A stretch of 64,000 nt of DNA from Schmidtea polychroa (taxonomy: Eukaryota): positions 620,001 to 684,000 of the forward strand of contig CM097885.1 of NCBI GenBank assembly GCA_044892525.1, in the 5' to 3' direction. Position numbers and translations under genes: made by a program. Each line of letters begins with the position of its first letter. Position 1 is the first letter of the stretch. The notes beneath the pieces are model-generated. The model saw only the letters and a list, made by a program, of their open reading frames with translations, ran no database searches and was not told where the DNA came from. This document shows, in pieces, positions 19,701-25,574 of this stretch.

Positions 19701-20913
19701 AGTAAAAATAGCCCTAACATCAAAAATTGAAGATAGATTAATAGAGGAAATAGAAAAGATGGGCAATGTAAAAATTCAATTCACAATTTTAATTAAATTT
19801 GAAAAAGATGGGGAGATCCGGGATAATTATTTTTCAAACAATGCTCAAGTTTTTACATCAAACCTTATAAACGAGGGGGTGAGCAAATTAAATGAAAAGA
19901 TTGAGCAATTCACCTATTTAGGAAGCGGGTGGCGAGTAATGAATATTTTAGAAATAGATTTTATTTTAACGAAATACGCACCCGTTAGTAGATTATCCGG
20001 ACATAGCTATATAAAAACCCCATCAGCATTAAAATTAAAACATGCAATAATTAATGTTAAAAACAACGACTATAAGTGCTTCTTGTATAGCACTCTTGCA
20101 CTTTTAAAAAGAGAAGAAATAGGTCGTAATCCCCAAAGAGCCGCTAAATATATAGAATTTTTACCTCTATTAAATTATGACGAAGACAGCGATTGCCCGA
20201 TGAGGCTATGCAACATTCCCAAATTTGAAAGAAGAAATAGAGATTTAAACTTGAGCATAAACGTTCTGTCTTATAATCCAACCAGTTCTGATTTAGATAT
20301 TTCTGAGGATTATGTAGCTCACCACCCTCATCTTAATATAGTACATCGCTCCAAGGTTATAGACGGTAGACCAATTTATTTATTACTTTTGAGTAATAAA
20401 GATAAATATCATTATACAGCCGTGACAGACTTGGACAAATTAATGAATTTTCATGAAAATGAAAATGTAAATGTTCAAATAAGGTGTAACTGGTGCCCAC
20501 ATTGTTTAAATGGCTTTAGATATAAGACTGCTTTCGATCAGCATGTTGCTCTATGCTGTAAAAATCAGACTGGCACAACTTTGTATACACTTCCTAAAAA
20601 TAAAGATTTATTATTCACAGATTACGCAAAAACCGTTACACCTCCCTTCGTAATTTATGCCGATTTTGAATCGGTTTTACCAGAACATGAAACATATCAT
20701 CAAATACATTTACCCATATCAGCAGGTCTTTTATTAATTATTAATTATACACACACTAAATTTTATTATTATTTTTTTGGACCTAATTGTATTTTGGATT
20801 TTTTGAGGAAAGTGGAGGAAATTGCTGTCACAATTGTCCTGCCATATTACGAACTTGAAGGTCATAAAGGCATGTCCGATGATTTAATGAACTCGTGCTC
20901 AATTTATATATAA
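16732..20913 (+). CDS. Family-A protein-primed PolB, 6 exons (16732-16786, 16834-16896, 16942-17034, 17082-17180, 17231-17410, 18971-), truncated at 20877 after Exo I
   Basis: All introns GT-AG and phase 1, internal exons multiples of 3, spliced frame continuous into the 626-aa ORF; GSGW, NNDYKCFLYS, HYTAV, CPHC, IYADFES motifs. Confidence 0.85.
17545..17990. repeat. Degenerate minisatellite (gaaaatgatttatgcccaaattat) in the long PolB intron
   Basis: Direct reading. Confidence 0.85.
18202..18515. repeat. ~80-bp tandem repeat (3 full plus partial), followed by (AAT)n to 18697 and a ~51-bp duplication
   Basis: aatgtagtctacagtaagcatgtagctacatagtagtctgcagtgggcatgcagctacttctc repeated. Confidence 0.9.
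18840..18913. other. Perfect 28-bp hairpin with 18-nt loop
   Basis: tctataaggatttatcatcatttgttat (18840-18867) and its exact reverse complement (18886-18913). Confidence 0.9.
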
Positions 20914-20940
20914 AGACTAATTTTCATAAATGATTTAATA

Positions 20941-21376
20941 ATGTTAGCAAATATAAATTATCGAGGAAATTTTGATGTATCGAATATGAGGTTCCCACCA
21001 GGGAAACCCCAGCAAATTATCGATAGAAGTGGGAAATATCCGATAATATTTTTCAAGACTGGTAAATGCCGAATCATGGGATGTAAGAAACCTTTGGATA
21101 TTAATAAATTACAATATCGAATAAATAATATTACAATCCAATCAATTACCGTTACTATGGATATGGGACATAGTATCAATCTATATAACGTCGAAAAAAT
21201 GTGATTGTATGTTTGAACCGGAATTGTTTCCGGCACTAAGACTATTAAAATATAACCCTATATGTGTCAACGTGTTTGCTAGTGGAAAGGTTGTCATGTT
21301 GGGGTTGAGAAATTTGGAGTATAGAGAATTTGTTGACAATGTTCGAAATGAGATAATTTCATTGGTCGATTTCTAA
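20941..21376 (+). pseudogene. Second TBP-like copy, 2-nt deletion frameshift at ~21189
   Basis: tataacgtcg versus tataacatgtcg in the left copy. Confidence 0.88.
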
Positions 21377-21452
21377 TTGGTTAATTTCTTATTGGTTATT
21401 GATTGATTTAAACAAACGGTTTTTGTTTAGAATTCATTTTTTTTTCAACATC

Positions 21453-21867
21453 ATGTACAAATTACCAAGCTCTGCAAACCTCATGAAGGATATCGACGAT
21501 TACGGTAAATTTTAAATTTTTATTTTCACATTATTTACTATTTATTATTTTAGAAAAATATTTAGATGTAATGATCAATACACTCAAATACTATTATCCT
21601 CAAATTATTGAAATCATCAAGGATCGAGAAGCAGAAATAATTCCGGACCTCATTTTCTACTCAACCCAAATAAGAATTATGGAGGTATTCCATCAATTCT
21701 TATGGGATATAAAGATTAACAGAACAGTGAAAGAAATGAAGCCGGAATATCAATGTATGTTCGGATGTTCCTGCTGTGCCGATCGATATCGGCGATATGT
21801 GGAATGGGAGTTAGTGAAAACTCTGAGAAGGTTTCACTACTCCCGGATTGTAGATAAATATCAATAA
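21453..21867 (+). CDS. Mirror copy of the 2-exon hypothetical protein
   Basis: One residue difference (Y/C) from the left copy in the ORF track. Confidence 0.7.
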
Positions 21868-22155
21868 ATGTATTTTTGTATTGAGTTTTTTTTTATATTT
21901 GAAGTAGAATTAGAAATAATAATAATAATAATAATAATAATAATAATATAAATAATAGAATTAGAAATAATAATAATAGAAATAATGATAGTAATAATAA
22001 AACATTAATAATATGTACATTAATAGAACATAAATGCAGCATTAATGCAAATGAAATGCAAATTTAAACAAAGACATACTGTAATCTGATTGGTTGATAG
22101 GCATGAGTCAAAGGTATAAAAACCCTGTAACATTTAAATTTATTCATTATTCACG

Positions 22156-22692: not shown

Positions 22693-23090
22693 ATGAAAAT
22701 GACTGCAGAAAAAGGTTAACATGATTAATTAATTACCGAATTATTTATTATTTAGAATTTTTAATCAACTTTTTGTGGGAAAAGTTAGCAGAAATATCTG
22801 GTGTGAAAATTGAGGACATATTATCTATTACAAATGCCTTAAATATCGGCTGGTTAGTTGAGAGTCAAGATACAGGATTTGATGTTGAGGAAGAAACTCA
22901 AGAAACCGATACTCAAGAAATTGATGAGGAAATCTATGAACCTATAGATGAACCTATAGAGGAACCTATAGAGGAACCTATAGAGGAACCTAAAGATGAA
23001 TCTAAAGATAATATTACGAATGATTGTATTGATCATGTCGTTGAAAATATAATGAAATGTGGAGATGACGACTGCGAATGTGTTAATTAA
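22693..23090 (+). CDS. Mirror copy of acidic protein (exons 22693-22714, 22756-23090)
   Basis: 41-nt GT-AG intron, in frame. Confidence 0.65.
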
Positions 23091-23173
23091 TAAATCTTAG
23101 TTAATTAGTGTTTGTAAATTTATTTAAAATGTTATTTAAAAATTTATTTAAAAATCAAACAAAAATAACTATA

Positions 23174-23694
23174 TTAATTTTTATTTAAAAATCTGGTTAA
23201 AATATACAAAATAGCAACACCTGTTGCAAGTTTTACATAGTTTTTAAATTTTCTTTTCTGATCATCAATTTCCTTCGCATTTCTGGCGAGTTGATTGAGT
23301 ACTCCCCATCCGCCATTGGCTTCAATCCATGGTTGAAACTTTGACTTGATTATCTAGAAAATAAATATTAATAAAATATAAATTATAAAAGTATTACTTC
23401 TTGAGACCACTGATAATAGTGCTCTGAGTCCCATAGACTTCTTTGGATTATTATTTTCATATAAGCGAACCCTACTAGTATTCGGGTCCACTTCATCTGA
23501 TCGTCGCATAGACAGTTAAAAATTCTATTAAAATAGAATTTTTTGGTTTCGAGACAATCAGAATTGATCACATCTTCATAATCAATGTGATTACCTTCTA
23601 TAATCTTTTCGGTCCGATCGACCAGGAAACATAGGCTTTCCATAATATTCCTGTTGACGAGTTCTCTTAAAAGATTTTCCATAAATTGAGACAT
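23174..23694 (-). CDS. Mirror copy of viral Bcl-2 (intron 23354-23397)
   Basis: Exon 1 translation identical; exon 2 mirrored. Confidence 0.88.
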
Positions 23695-23799
23695 TTTTAC
23701 AATAATTTAAAATATGATGTTTTATTTATACTAATACCGGATGATTTTGATTGGTTGATAGACTATAAATGTAAAAGAAAGGTTTTGATTTGATACACC

Positions 23800-24297
23800 A
23801 TGAAAACTATATTCATATTGCTAATTATTATAACGAGTGTGTGCTCACACAATACAACAATAACAGTGGAGTCTTTTAATTAATCAATATGTGTTTGTCC
23901 GAATACAGCCAAGTTGATGGATATTTTATATATTCTGGACAAACCAAAATGGTCAAAGCATCCAGGAAAAAGAATATCTCAAAGATTGGAGAATTTAGAA
24001 AACAGTTATGAACTATCATTTGAATATATACAAAATATAAAATTTGAATTGATTGATCATATTAAGGTTTTCAATAACTCTATTGTTGAAAATAAAATGA
24101 ATATGAAAATAATTGATAAGAAGCATGATTATTTGTTAAAAAAGATTGAATTATTATTAAGAAAAATTCAAACAATCAAAGGATCAATAGAATCTCTGAA
24201 AATCAATTCTACGTTACCAATTTCAAACAATATTGCTGCGAATAGTACATCAATATTTAGTTTACCTTTGGTAATTTTACATTATTTTATTGTTTAA
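23800..24297 (+). pseudogene. Mirror copy of signal-peptide/GPI-like protein, same stop at codon 28
   Basis: ATG 23800; TAA 23881-23883. Confidence 0.6.
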
Positions 24298-25574
24298 ATA
24301 AATGTATGTTTTGTTGATTTGTTGAGCGTGACCAGTACCCTTGTGAGCATTACCCATAGGGGGACAAAATATTTTGTCGGATAGACTAGGAGTATATAGA
24401 CTCAGAGTATATAGATTAATAATAATAATAATAATAATAATAATAATAATAATAATAATAATAATAATAATAATAATAATAATAATAATATTAATAATAA
24501 TAATAATATATAGCTCATTCGAATTTTCGTTGGCGGGAACTTTGAACAAATTAAAAATAAAATAATATTTTTAAAAATAATAATAAAAATAATAATATTT
24601 TTTAAAAATAATAATATGACCTTGATGACTCATCGCGATGACTCATATGGCCTTGGGAATGACCTTGGAAATTTTGATGAGTCATCGGATGAGTCATATG
24701 ACCTCGAAAAATTCGATGAGTCATAGTATGACTCATATGGCCTTGAAAATGACCTTGATGAGCCATGGGATGAGTCAGGTGACCTTAAGGAAATTTTTCC
24801 AAGGACATATGACTCATACTATGACTCATGTGACCTTGAAATTGTCCTTGAAGAGTCATAGGATGAGTCAGATGCCCTTGAAAATTTTTTTCACGGTCAT
24901 ACGAGTCATAGTATGAGTCATATGACCTTGAAAATGACCTTGATGAGTCACATTATGAGTCATGGTCTTTGTTTAAATGATCTTAAAAATTTTGATGACT
25001 CAGACTATGAGTCATATGGCCTTGGGAAAAAATTTTCATGGGCACATGAGTCATAGTATGAGTCATATGACCTTGAAAATGACCTTGATGAGCCATAGAC
25101 TTTGTTTAAACGACCTTAAAAAATTTTTTTGACCTTGATGAGTCATATTATGAGTCATACGCCCTTGAAAATGGCCTTGATGAGTCATAGGATGAGTCAT
25201 GGTCTTTGTTTAAATGCCCTTGAGAAATTTGATGAGTCATACTATGAGTCATGGTCTTTGTTTCAATGACCTTGATGAGTCATATGTCTTTGTTTAAAAA
25301 ATGTACTTTTAAACTTAGCATATTTTTGAAAAATATGACGACCGGGGCGGGGGGTACTGTGCTAACGGTGCCCTGTGCCAGCGGCGCCCAATCCATCTAT
25401 TATAATAATAATAATATATCAACCAAATACTATACAACACATAAAAAATTAACTAAACACATAAAAATAACTAGACACATAACAAAACATATAAACATTA
25501 ACTAGACACATAAAAAACATAAAAATTTACCAAACAAATAACAAATGTATATATATAAACTTTTATTTAATAAA

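What the first reader, a model, noticed from the sequence alone, without database searches (positions are those of the whole stretch)
20860..25407. Copy-back genome: the left 4.7 kb replaced the polymerase 3' half, yet the element has matching flanks
The right arm starts abruptly inside PolB (20877) and mirrors 6153-10862, deleting the catalytic domain and doubling the accessory genes. ATAATA flanks both ends. This suggests a defective panhandle/template-switch genome formed during protein-primed replication and integrated with helper polymerase, like a defective-interfering particle. Arms differ by scattered substitutions, arguing against a simple assembly artefact. The TSD lies in low-complexity sequence, so it is weak evidence alone.
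Basis: partly seen in the sequence, partly recalled or inferred. Interest (0 to 1): 0.7.

Follow-up and report, generated by a model that had tools for sequence, protein, structure and literature searches.

The report
Rearranged Maverick element with extended inverted ends
A virus-like Maverick/Polinton element sits here as a clean insertion, but the back half of its DNA polymerase gene has been replaced by a mirror copy of the genes next to its left end, and three more such mirror-image elements lie elsewhere in the same genome.

Summary
Window 6153-25401 is a 19,249-bp Maverick/Polinton-type element. It has a double-jelly-roll capsid gene, an A32-like ATPase, an integrase-like gene with a chromodomain, and a protein-primed PolB. 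A 6-bp target-site duplication (ATAATA) flanks it, and empty paralogous sites confirm the insertion. PolB stops after codon 614. The 3.4-3.6 kb that follows in ordinary copies (EndoVII and polymerase domains) is replaced by a 3,376-bp inverted copy of 7494-10862. This copy abuts the family's ordinary 1.3-kb right TIR. The join at 20876|20877 is blunt.

- Only about 3.4 kb is new. The outer ends are ordinary, non-identical TIRs, so this is not a full terminal copy-back.
- The junction exists at four loci, but all descend from one insertion spread by segmental duplication. There is no sign that the rearranged form transposed.
- It is not unique. I found three more independent inverted dimers, one left-left and two right-right. 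Each has a perfect 6-bp duplication and non-identical outer TIRs.

The mechanism is a U-turn followed by a homologous return inside the TIR. Whether this happened in the chromosome (about 50%) or on a free replication intermediate (about 38%) is unresolved.

The parts
6147..6152 (.). left target-site duplication, ATAATA
   Evidence: The filled site has six AAT units split across the element. All 6 empty sites compared have four.
6153..7493 (+). left TIR of the family. Terminus AGTAGATGG..., tandem 42-92-nt repeats, (TAT)n at 7160-7329.
   Evidence: the inner boundary falls at 7493 in 3 of 3 ordinary copies. Searches show the repeats and terminus.
7494..10862 (-). accessory-gene block, original copy. 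ORFs 7449-7832, 8052-8363(+), 8656-8973, 9180-9590, 9871-10167, 10361-10798.
   Evidence: The block is colinear with ordinary copies.
10364..10798 (-). single-repeat TBP-like protein, 145 aa
   Evidence: Pfam TBP E 2.5e-15. PDB TBPs reach E 7.6e-10. 108 homologues carry PF00352.
10898..12075 (+). A32-like packaging ATPase, split over four short ORFs in this copy
   Evidence: Pox_A32 31.5 bits against a cut-off of 22.8 for 10898-11287. ORF list.
12137..13261 (+). integrase-like protein with a C-terminal chromodomain
   Evidence: rve E 1.3e-5 (25.8 bits, below the cut-off of 32.6). Chromo E 3.4e-4.
14632..15855 (+). major capsid protein, double jelly-roll
   Evidence: Model pLDDT 89.4. Foldseek E 1.9e-16 to iridovirus, then PBCV-1, mavirus and Sputnik MCPs. 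Virophage and adomavirus capsids also match.
19033..20913 (+). truncated protein-primed PolB. Codons 1-614 are PolB and the last 12 come from the inverted arm.
   Evidence: The ordinary continuation holds EndoVII and DNA_pol_B_2.
20876..20877 (.). illegitimate junction, PolB | reverse complement of 10862, with 0 nt of microhomology
   Evidence: Identical over 200 nt at 4 loci.
20877..24252 (+). inverted duplicate of 7494-10862. Its TBP-like ORF copy is frameshifted by a 2-nt deletion near 21189.
   Evidence: for the frameshift.
24253..25401 (-). right TIR. Same family TIR, not a fresh copy of the left one.
25402..25407 (.). right target-site duplication, ATAATA

Best explanation
This is an integrated Maverick/Polinton-type element that cannot replicate on its own. 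Its interior was rebuilt once by a 'U-turn plus homologous return'. DNA synthesis or repair that had reached PolB position 20876 continued, after a blunt illegitimate join, on the opposite strand at 10862. It copied the accessory block back towards the left end. It then returned to the element's own right end through the homology of the inner TIR. The 3.4-3.6-kb EndoVII/polymerase part was lost, and the effective TIR grew from 1.3 to about 4.7 kb.

Shown:
- the structure, the blunt junction, the 6-bp duplication and the empty sites;
- a single origin, with spread to four loci by segmental duplication only;
- later arm-to-arm gene conversion;
- the same architecture in three further independent elements of the family.

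Inferred: the order of the two switches, and the venue. I favour the venue being the chromosome after integration (fork U-turn or break repair with second-end capture at the TIR), at about 50%. A free or excised replication intermediate stands at about 38%.
For: - Structure and junction.
- Ordinary copies are colinear with window 6150-20876, then carry 3,435-3,554 bp that the window lacks, then the TIR. That missing part holds EndoVII and DNA_pol_B_2.
- Clean insertion: window ~6143 joins directly to 25404 in 3 paralogous units and in 4 dispersed copies. All 6 empty sites compared have two fewer AAT units, which equals a 6-bp duplication.
- Single origin: 4 of 40 scored matches (2,464 candidates) span the junction, all on C1 between 0.64 and 1.36 Mb. 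The right TIR|flank joint occurs at 5 places in those 4 loci. The left flank|TIR joint occurs in the window only. Filled units form one clade, support 0.975.
- In-situ arm-templated copying happened at this locus family. Copy 2's palindrome runs about 3.8 kb beyond the element into the flank at 98% identity. Its left TIR is a mosaic, with a right-type outer part and a left-type inner part.
- Gene conversion: 2 sites are derived in both window arms only, 1 site in both copy-2 arms only, and 0 sites separate left arms from right arms.
- TIR anchoring: in dimer e2 the arms show 0 differences over 2,760 nt. Its two TIRs differ at 10 positions between 797 and 1360 nt from the terminus, and at none further in.
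- For the in-situ venue: e2's arms differ from the best 38 other scored copies by about 3 of 2,290 nt (my estimate from bit scores 4131 vs 4117). Among those scored copies there is no identical parent.
- The junction has 0 nt of microhomology.
Against: - Nothing shows directly that an ordinary element ever occupied this site. No paralogue carries an un-rearranged copy there.
- Four independent dimers all keep exact termini and perfect 6-bp duplications. Their junctions are snap-back-like or complex: a 48-nt loop plus a 1,456-nt skip, a 284-nt templated insert, and a 282-nt spacer. These fit a replication intermediate held together by a TIR panhandle just as well.
- The rearranged element (19,249 bp) is within about 1% of the estimated ordinary length of 19.3-19.4 kb. 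That is a weak hint of a packaging limit.
- Arm identity cannot date the event. Dispersed ordinary copies are also 99% identical to the left arm, and the arms are being homogenised.
- For the window itself, the outer-TIR difference is not significantly above what independent decay would give. My estimate is 7 differences in the first ~230 columns of the alignment against about 4 expected from the private branch length.
Confidence: 0.5

Rival explanations
1. Pre-integration origin. The rearrangement arose on a free or excised single-stranded intermediate whose two TIRs were paired as a panhandle. A broken or stalled 3' end snapped back, copied its own arm up to the base of the TIR stem, and was joined to the other TIR. 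The defective genome was then integrated by integrase supplied by one of the many other copies.
For: - Four independent dimers (2 left-left, 2 right-right) have exact termini, perfect 6-bp duplications in unrelated, non-mirrored flanks, and non-identical outer TIRs.
- In e2 the crossover lies at about the inner TIR boundary. The last difference is 1360 nt from the terminus.
- Junctions show short loops and a templated insert.
- Potential helpers are abundant. A PolB-C 32-mer occurs 500 times and an accessory-block 32-mer 1,026 times.
- The window element has near-ordinary length.
Against: - No second insertion site of any one junction was found. The window's four loci are one insertion.
- No copy identical to e2's arms, which would be its parent, is among the 40 scored of 2,786 candidates.
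- The join is blunt rather than showing microhomology.
- Chromosomal arm-templated copying is demonstrated at copy 2.
- No extrachromosomal form has been observed here.
Confidence: 0.38
2. Literal copy-back defective genome. The polymerase ran back to the very left terminus, so both ends are copies of the left end, and the ends diverged later.
For: The arms are mirror images from 10862 out to the terminus. In the first ~230 nt the left/right differences in the window are not significantly above expected decay (my estimate).
Against: - Inner arms differ at 0.26% (7 of 2,648), while the terminal 270 nt differ at 4.5% (12 of 268), with rearranged repeat arrays.
- In e2 there are 0 differences in 2,760 nt of arm but 10 substitutions and scrambled arrays inside the TIR.
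- None of the 4 dimers has matching outer TIRs: 84-89% identity.
Confidence: 0.05
3. Two neighbouring elements in opposite orientation, fused by a deletion or by nested insertion plus deletion.
For: Other copies are 99% identical to the left arm, so the arms could come from two elements. The join is blunt.
Against: The two outer ends bracket one 6-bp duplication at a site that is continuous in 6 empty copies. The same holds for three other dimers. Two separate insertions would not share one duplication.
Confidence: 0.04
4. Assembly artefact: a chimeric join of repeat copies.
For: The family has at least 1,000 near-identical copies. No independent read support could be obtained.
Against: The junction is assembled at four loci that differ from one another by 0.2-1.1% in adjoining sequence and have different surroundings. 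The arms carry locus-specific changes.
Confidence: 0.02

Closest known systems
Polinton/Maverick (polintovirus, adintovirus-like) self-synthesising elements
   Same: The element has a protein-primed PolB with an EndoVII insert, an rve-like integrase, an A32-like ATPase, a double-jelly-roll capsid protein, long TIRs and a 6-bp target-site duplication. One PolB relative is named as springtail adintovirus PolB.
   Different: This copy lacks the polymerase domain and carries a 3.4-kb inverted internal duplication. The lineage also carries a single-repeat TBP-like gene. No protease was identified.
Adenovirus incomplete-particle / defective genomes with long inverted terminal repetitions, and copy-back or snap-back defective viral genomes in general (recalled; one search gave only a listing of RNA-virus papers)
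   Same: A protein-primed linear replicon, one end's genes duplicated in inverted form, loss of essential genes, and snap-back-like junctions in e2 and e4.
   Different: The two termini here are not copies of one end. The forms are found integrated with target-site duplications. No evidence of propagation in trans.
TIR/ITR expansion by arm exchange in linear replicons such as poxvirus ITRs and Streptomyces linear chromosomes and plasmids (recalled, not from a call)
   Same: The inverted terminal repeat grows inward by copying unique sequence from the other arm, deleting what it replaces.
   Different: Those events are documented on free linear replicons. Here the venue is unknown.
Chromosomal fold-back inversions and inverted-repeat-mediated DUP-TRP/INV-DUP rearrangements (abstracts seen only in the listing: PMC7467729, PMC2621351)
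   Same: One illegitimate turn plus one switch through a pre-existing inverted repeat. Copy 2's flank-including palindrome is of this kind.
   Different: The window's rearrangement is confined within the element's ends, and the flanks are not mirrored.
Mu killer of maize, an inverted partial duplication of MuDR that silences the family by hairpin RNA (recalled)
   Same: An inverted duplication of part of an autonomous TIR element, with the potential to form long hairpin RNA.
   Different: No transcription or small-RNA evidence here. The spacer is 10 kb.

Membership tests
Polinton/Maverick | [quoted passage not shown] | tested here: met
   The 626-aa ORF is 46% identical to residues 98-533 of a 1242-aa protein with PF03175 and PF02945. 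An ordinary copy has DNA_pol_B_2 at E 1.4e-10. In the window copy the catalytic part is deleted.
Polinton/Maverick | retrovirus-like (rve) integrase | tested here: inconclusive
   rve E 1.3e-5 but 25.8 bits, below the Pfam cut-off of 32.6. Chromo E 3.4e-4.
Polinton/Maverick | double-jelly-roll major capsid protein | tested here: met
   pLDDT 89.4. Foldseek E 1.9e-16 and below to iridovirus, PBCV-1, mavirus and Sputnik MCPs.
Polinton/Maverick | A32/FtsK-type packaging ATPase | tested here: met
   Pox_A32 31.5 bits, above the cut-off of 22.8, for 10898-11287. The gene is fragmented in this copy.
Polinton/Maverick | TIRs and a 5-6-bp target-site duplication (the expected length is recalled) | tested here: met
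   1.15-1.34-kb TIRs. 6-bp duplications at 4 of 4 elements examined.
Polinton/Maverick | adenovirus-type cysteine protease and penton protein | tested here: inconclusive
   No Pfam hit at E up to 1 for the remaining ORFs. The 286-aa ORF has only language-model neighbours among Preplasmiviricota clusters.
Copy-back / snap-back defective genome | both termini are copies of the same end | tested here: not met
   Outer TIRs are 82-89% identical while the inner arms are 99.3-100% identical, in 4 of 4 dimers.
Copy-back / snap-back defective genome | propagates in trans: the same junction at independent sites | tested here: not met
   All 4 junction loci share one insertion site and flank clade. Only 40 of 2,464 candidates were scored.
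Copy-back / snap-back defective genome | formed during the element's own replication | not testable with these tools
   This needs extrachromosomal DNA or population data.
Chromosomal fold-back inverted duplication | the mirror symmetry continues into host flanks | tested here: not met
   The window flanks are the two halves of one continuous empty site. The feature is met only in derived copy 2.

The most novel reading that the evidence does not exclude
The four inverted dimers are integrated defective genomes made on a TIR-panhandle replication intermediate. If so, they are a sequence fossil of the Maverick/Polinton replication cycle, which has never been observed. With at least 1,000 young copies, this genome would hold a natural library of such junctions. 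From it the direction of synthesis, the role of the TIR stem and trans-mobilisation could be read.
Probability: 0.38. Interest if true: 0.75.

Novelty: new variant of a known kind. Interest (0 to 1): 0.55.

Why it matters
How Mavericks/Polintons copy themselves is inferred only from their gene content. A recurrent class of derivatives could constrain that mechanism. These derivatives have one arm mirrored, a crossover at the inner TIR edge, and both integration ends and the 6-bp duplication intact. If they were made before integration, they speak to the replication cycle. If they were made in place, they show that kilobase TIRs make such elements hot spots for a specific two-switch chromosomal rearrangement.

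The class also supplies PolB-less and integrase-less non-autonomous forms. Long inverted arms can in principle give hairpin RNA against a family with about a thousand copies. For this single locus taken alone the result is more ordinary: one rearranged, partly decayed copy in a segmentally duplicated repeat-rich region.

Tried and rejected
- Mitochondrial or alternative genetic code. Codes 4 and 6 were tried. No tRNA or Rfam family was found. The 626-aa ORF is open under the standard code, so this reading was dropped.
- Read support. Only Logan contigs were available. No listed piece bridges 20876|20877. Loose ends show the ordinary continuations on both sides. Contigs drop rare variants, so this says nothing either way. 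No RNA holder was listed.
- Dating by arm divergence. This was rejected because the arms are homogenised and dispersed copies are equally similar.
- A 'right-type versus left-type' TIR as a family-wide marker. This was rejected. The 39-nt gap in the window's right TIR is private, and terminal variants follow subfamily, not side.
- Flank versus element divergence as a test for independent insertions. F flanks differ by 1.1-1.8%, PolB-N by 0.6-1.1% and arms by 0.3-0.7% among the four loci. The filled units are nevertheless one clade, so I did not read this as separate insertions.
- Pfam on the remaining ORFs gave nothing usable. PDB sequence search with the PolB fragment gave no hit.
- Literature. 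Searches (Polinton + defective + template switching + inverted duplication; 12 of 40 listed; Polinton/Maverick + copy-back, snap-back, foldback, defective interfering; 15 of 442 listed) each showed no listed paper holding Polinton or Maverick together with one of these terms. One search gave nothing on long-TIR non-autonomous Polintons. I saw listings and two sets of 'find' passages only.
- Earlier findings of the scan: none for this genome.
- One further candidate pair (C1:106978651 / 106998609) and the inversion in the C2:183.35-Mb copy were not followed up.

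
Full report
**What the sequence is.** The window is AT-rich (mostly 20-37% GC). It has no tRNA or Rfam family. It lies at C1:620001-684000 of a 781-Mb assembly with chromosome-sized contigs.

Between 6153 and 25401 the ORFs identify a Maverick/Polinton-type element:
- An A32-like ATPase fragment: 10898-11287, 31.5 bits against a cut-off of 22.8.
- An integrase-like protein with a chromodomain: 12137-13258, rve E 1.3e-5, below Pfam's cut-off.
- A single-repeat TBP-like protein: 10364-10798, E 2.5e-15.
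- A 407-aa protein that folds with pLDDT 89.4 as a double-jelly-roll capsid protein. Foldseek gives E 1.9e-16 to an iridovirus MCP, then PBCV-1, mavirus and Sputnik. Virophage and adomavirus capsids also match.
- A 626-aa ORF (19033-20913). It is 46% identical to the first 533 residues of 1,200-1,400-aa proteins that carry EndoVII and DNA_pol_B_2 domains. One of these is named PolB of a springtail adintovirus.

**The observation.** The inverted repeat is as described.
- The self-BLAST gives 7235-10862 against 24512-20877 at 99.29% over 3,639 columns.
- The outer 1.1 kb is only 82-84% identical.
- The right arm begins at 20877, directly after PolB codon 614.
- Ordinary copies continue differently after 20876.
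- Neither side of the join shares a base with the other parent, so there is no microhomology.
- The break removes the EndoVII insert and the whole recognisable polymerase domain. It keeps the N-terminal part, including an ExoI-like YADFES stretch; that motif name is recalled.

**What an ordinary copy looks like.** Three ordinary copies were fetched and laid on the window.
- They are colinear with window ~6150-20876, as far as each is complete.
- They then carry 3,435, 3,465 and 3,554 bp that the window lacks, and then a right TIR.
- In 3 of 3 the TIR's inner boundary corresponds to window 7493 on the left and 24253 on the right.
- In one of them the missing stretch holds EndoVII (E 3.3e-4) and DNA_pol_B_2 (E 1.4e-10), though split over three ORFs.

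So the family has TIRs of about 1.15-1.34 kb, with 42-92-nt tandem repeats and a (TAT)n run. What is new in the window is 20877-24252 (3,376 bp), a mirror of 7494-10862. The rearranged element is 19,249 bp, within about 1% of the 19.3-19.4 kb estimated for ordinary copies.

**It is a true insertion.**
- The sequence left of 6153 and right of 25401 is continuous elsewhere. In three paralogous units on C1, window ~6143 is joined directly to 25404. The same contiguity holds in four dispersed copies on C1-C4. The target therefore lay inside another dispersed repeat.
- At the nucleotide level all 6 empty sites have four AAT units before ATATCAACC. The filled site has six, split across the element. 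That is a 6-bp duplication, ATAATA, at 6147-6152 and 25402-25407.
- The window's flanks are therefore not mirrored.

**How many copies of the junction, and how did they spread.**
- A 200-nt probe across the join finds 4 full-length matches at 100% among 40 scored (2,464 candidates). All are on C1 at 0.64, 1.02, 1.15 and 1.36 Mb. The other 36 match one half only.
- The joint between right TIR and flank is found at 5 places, which are those 4 loci, one of them on both sides.
- The joint between left flank and left TIR is found in the window only.
- On a tree of the 1.1-kb flank, the filled units group together (support 0.975) apart from three empty units.
- The PolB-N parts of the four loci group weakly (0.88) within a star-like family, in which unrelated copies are only 0.4-1.5% away.

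Hence there was one insertion carrying one junction, later copied with its surroundings by segmental duplication.
- Copies 3 and 4 have lost everything left of about window 16,265-16,300.
- Copy 2 has a palindrome running about 3.8 kb beyond the element into the flank on both sides at 98%. Its left TIR is right-type outside and left-type inside. This shows that one arm was used as template for the other in the chromosome.

**The arms since then.** Over the inner 2.65 kb the window's arms differ at 7 positions and 4 indels (0.26%). Copy 2's arms differ at 11 positions. Arms of different loci differ at 5-18.
- No site separates left arms from right arms.
- Two derived states are shared by both window arms only, and one by both copy-2 arms only.
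- The arms are therefore being homogenised. Because dispersed copies are also 99% identical to the left arm, arm divergence cannot date the event.
- One of the duplicated genes, the TBP-like ORF, is frameshifted in the right arm by a 2-nt deletion. The doubling of accessory genes is thus not complete at the protein level.

**Not a run-off copy-back.** If synthesis had run back to the left terminus, both ends would have started identical.
- In the window the terminal 270 nt differ at 12 of 268 positions (4.5%), and the repeat arrays are differently built.
- Taken alone this is weak. By my reading of the alignment only one of those changes is clearly older than the locus duplication. A 39-nt gap is private to the window's right TIR. 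There is no family-wide left or right TIR type.

The decisive evidence came from other elements (next paragraph).

**A recurrent class.** A 32-mer of the accessory block occurs 1,026 times, and a 32-mer of the PolB C-half 500 times. The reversed controls gave 0. Among the first 100 places listed for each, I looked for opposite-strand pairs within 25 kb. I found, besides the window and its copy 2, three more elements.
- **e2 (C1:29602228-29617439, 15,212 bp), left-left.** The left half runs to about window 14489. There is a 48-nt loop, then 134 nt copied back, a 1,456-nt skip, and then the arm back to the terminus. The arms are 100% complementary over 2,360 + 266 + 134 nt. The duplication is ATCATT in unrelated flanks.
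- **e3 (C1:93468810-93479225, 10,416 bp), right-right.** 499 nt lie between the arms, including a 284-nt inverted piece of PolB-N. The duplication is AACAAA.
- **e4 (C1:24976661-24988590, 11,930 bp), right-right.** The arms start near the beginning of PolB, with a 282-nt spacer and 830 nt at 100%. The duplication is GACCTA.

In all three the outer TIRs of the two ends are only 84-89% identical. In e2 the two TIRs differ at 10 positions between 797 and 1,360 nt from the terminus, plus a microsatellite length difference and scrambled arrays. They differ nowhere further in. Zero differences in 2,760 nt of arm against ten inside the TIR cannot be later decay. The TIR of the 'new' end is therefore the parent's own other TIR, and the duplicated tract begins at about the inner TIR boundary. 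The window has the same architecture, with identity from 7238 inward.

**Mechanism.** The common structure needs two switches:
1. An illegitimate U-turn. This is blunt with a 10-kb jump in the window. It is a short loop, a skip or a templated insert in the others.
2. A return to the other end through TIR homology.

Two venues give this product.
- **In the chromosome.** A fork U-turn or a broken end copies its own arm. As soon as inner-TIR sequence has been made, it is captured by the TIR on the other side. Only events that reconnect the flank survive, which explains 4 of 4 being TIR-anchored.
- **On a free or excised single strand whose TIRs are paired.** A broken 3' end snaps back and copies up to the base of the stem. 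It is then joined to the other TIR, and the product is integrated in trans.

For the chromosome:
- Every junction locus descends from one insertion.
- Copy 2's event was demonstrably in situ.
- The join is blunt.
- e2's arms share about 3 private differences in 2,290 nt from the nearest 38 scored copies. This is my estimate from bit scores 4131 vs 4117. No identical parent is among the 40 scored of 2,786 candidates.

For the free intermediate:
- The events recur from both ends, always with exact termini and perfect duplications.
- The crossover lies at the stem base.
- The junctions are replication-like.
- The window element has near-ordinary length.

I put the odds at about 50% for the chromosome, about 38% for the free intermediate, and the rest on minor rivals.

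**What could not be done.**
- Public runs were available only as short contigs, and none listed bridges the join. This is uninformative.
- Motif lists showed only the first 100 places.
- I did not build any consensus, did not judge which copies are intact, and did not examine supplements of any paper.
- The searches listed no paper that links Polintons or Mavericks with copy-back, fold-back or inverted-duplication derivatives. I saw listings only, apart from 'find' passages in PMC6431247 and PMC4028283.

**Verdict.** The interpretation needs three corrections: 3.4 kb rather than 4.7 kb, no full copy-back, and no evidence of mobilisation. It also gains an extension. The same TIR-anchored mirror architecture recurs at about 2 independent events per 100 listed motif places for each end of the element. 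This is a new variant of a known kind, moderately interesting in itself. It would be considerably more interesting if the pre-integration reading were confirmed.

Noticed in passing
G000:C1:29602228-29617439 (L043-L045, L050, L051): Independent left-left inverted dimer of the same family, 15,212 bp, with a perfect 6-bp duplication ATCATT in unrelated flanks. It folds back with a 48-nt loop, copies 134 nt, skips 1,456 nt and then runs to the end. The arms are 100% identical over 2,360 + 266 + 134 nt. It lacks the capsid gene and PolB.
   Followed up: yes
G000:C1:93468810-93479225 (L046-L049) and C1:24976661-24988590 (L052-L054): Two right-right inverted dimers of 10,416 and 11,930 bp, with perfect duplications AACAAA and GACCTA. 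In the first, the 499 nt between the arms include a 284-nt inverted PolB-N piece. The second has a 282-nt spacer and arms that include most of PolB. The arms are 100% identical over the 445 and 830 nt examined.
   Followed up: yes
G000:C1:1342525-1367253 (L011-L013): A paralogous copy of the window's element. Its palindrome has been extended outward about 3.8 kb into the flanking repeat on both sides (98% identity). Its left TIR is a right-type/left-type mosaic. It also lacks window 11255-12973.
   Followed up: yes
G000:C1, about 0.32-1.36 Mb: The window lies in a segmentally duplicated, repeat-built region. The flank unit (window 25404-26558) occurs full-length at 17 places there, in both orientations. 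Its parts are also dispersed on other chromosomes as the ends of another element of about 7-13 kb with TIRs.
   Followed up: partly
window 10364-10798 (-) and its copy at 20941-21385 (+): A 145-aa protein with a single TBP repeat is a conserved gene of this element lineage. There are 108 homologues of 96-232 aa. Several sit on contigs of the same length (16.2, 20.1, 22.1 kb) as contigs bearing capsid homologues. The right-arm copy is frameshifted.
   Followed up: partly
whole genome: A 32-mer of the accessory block occurs 1,026 times, but a 32-mer of the PolB C-half only 500 times. About half of the copies may therefore lack the polymerase part, or the CpG-rich motif may decay faster.
   Followed up: no
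window 3225-3941 (+), 28589-29353 (-), 33275-34117 (+): Fragments of a second PolB family (EndoVII plus the start of DNA_pol_B_2, weak Pfam hits), repeated several times in the window. This is another Maverick-like family forming the surroundings.
   Followed up: no
G000:C2:183350686-183352233 (L024, L025): An otherwise ordinary copy in which the segment matching window 9984-11504 is inverted next to 11499, and the rest of the left end is missing. This is another kind of rearrangement near the ATPase start.
   Followed up: no
G000:C1:106978651 / 106998609: A pair of PolB-C motifs in minus-then-plus order, 20 kb apart. It may be a larger right-right dimer or two truncated copies.
   Followed up: no
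window 8052-8360 (+): Weak Bcl-2 family hit (E 0.008, below cut-off) for a 103-aa accessory ORF that lies in both arms.
   Followed up: no
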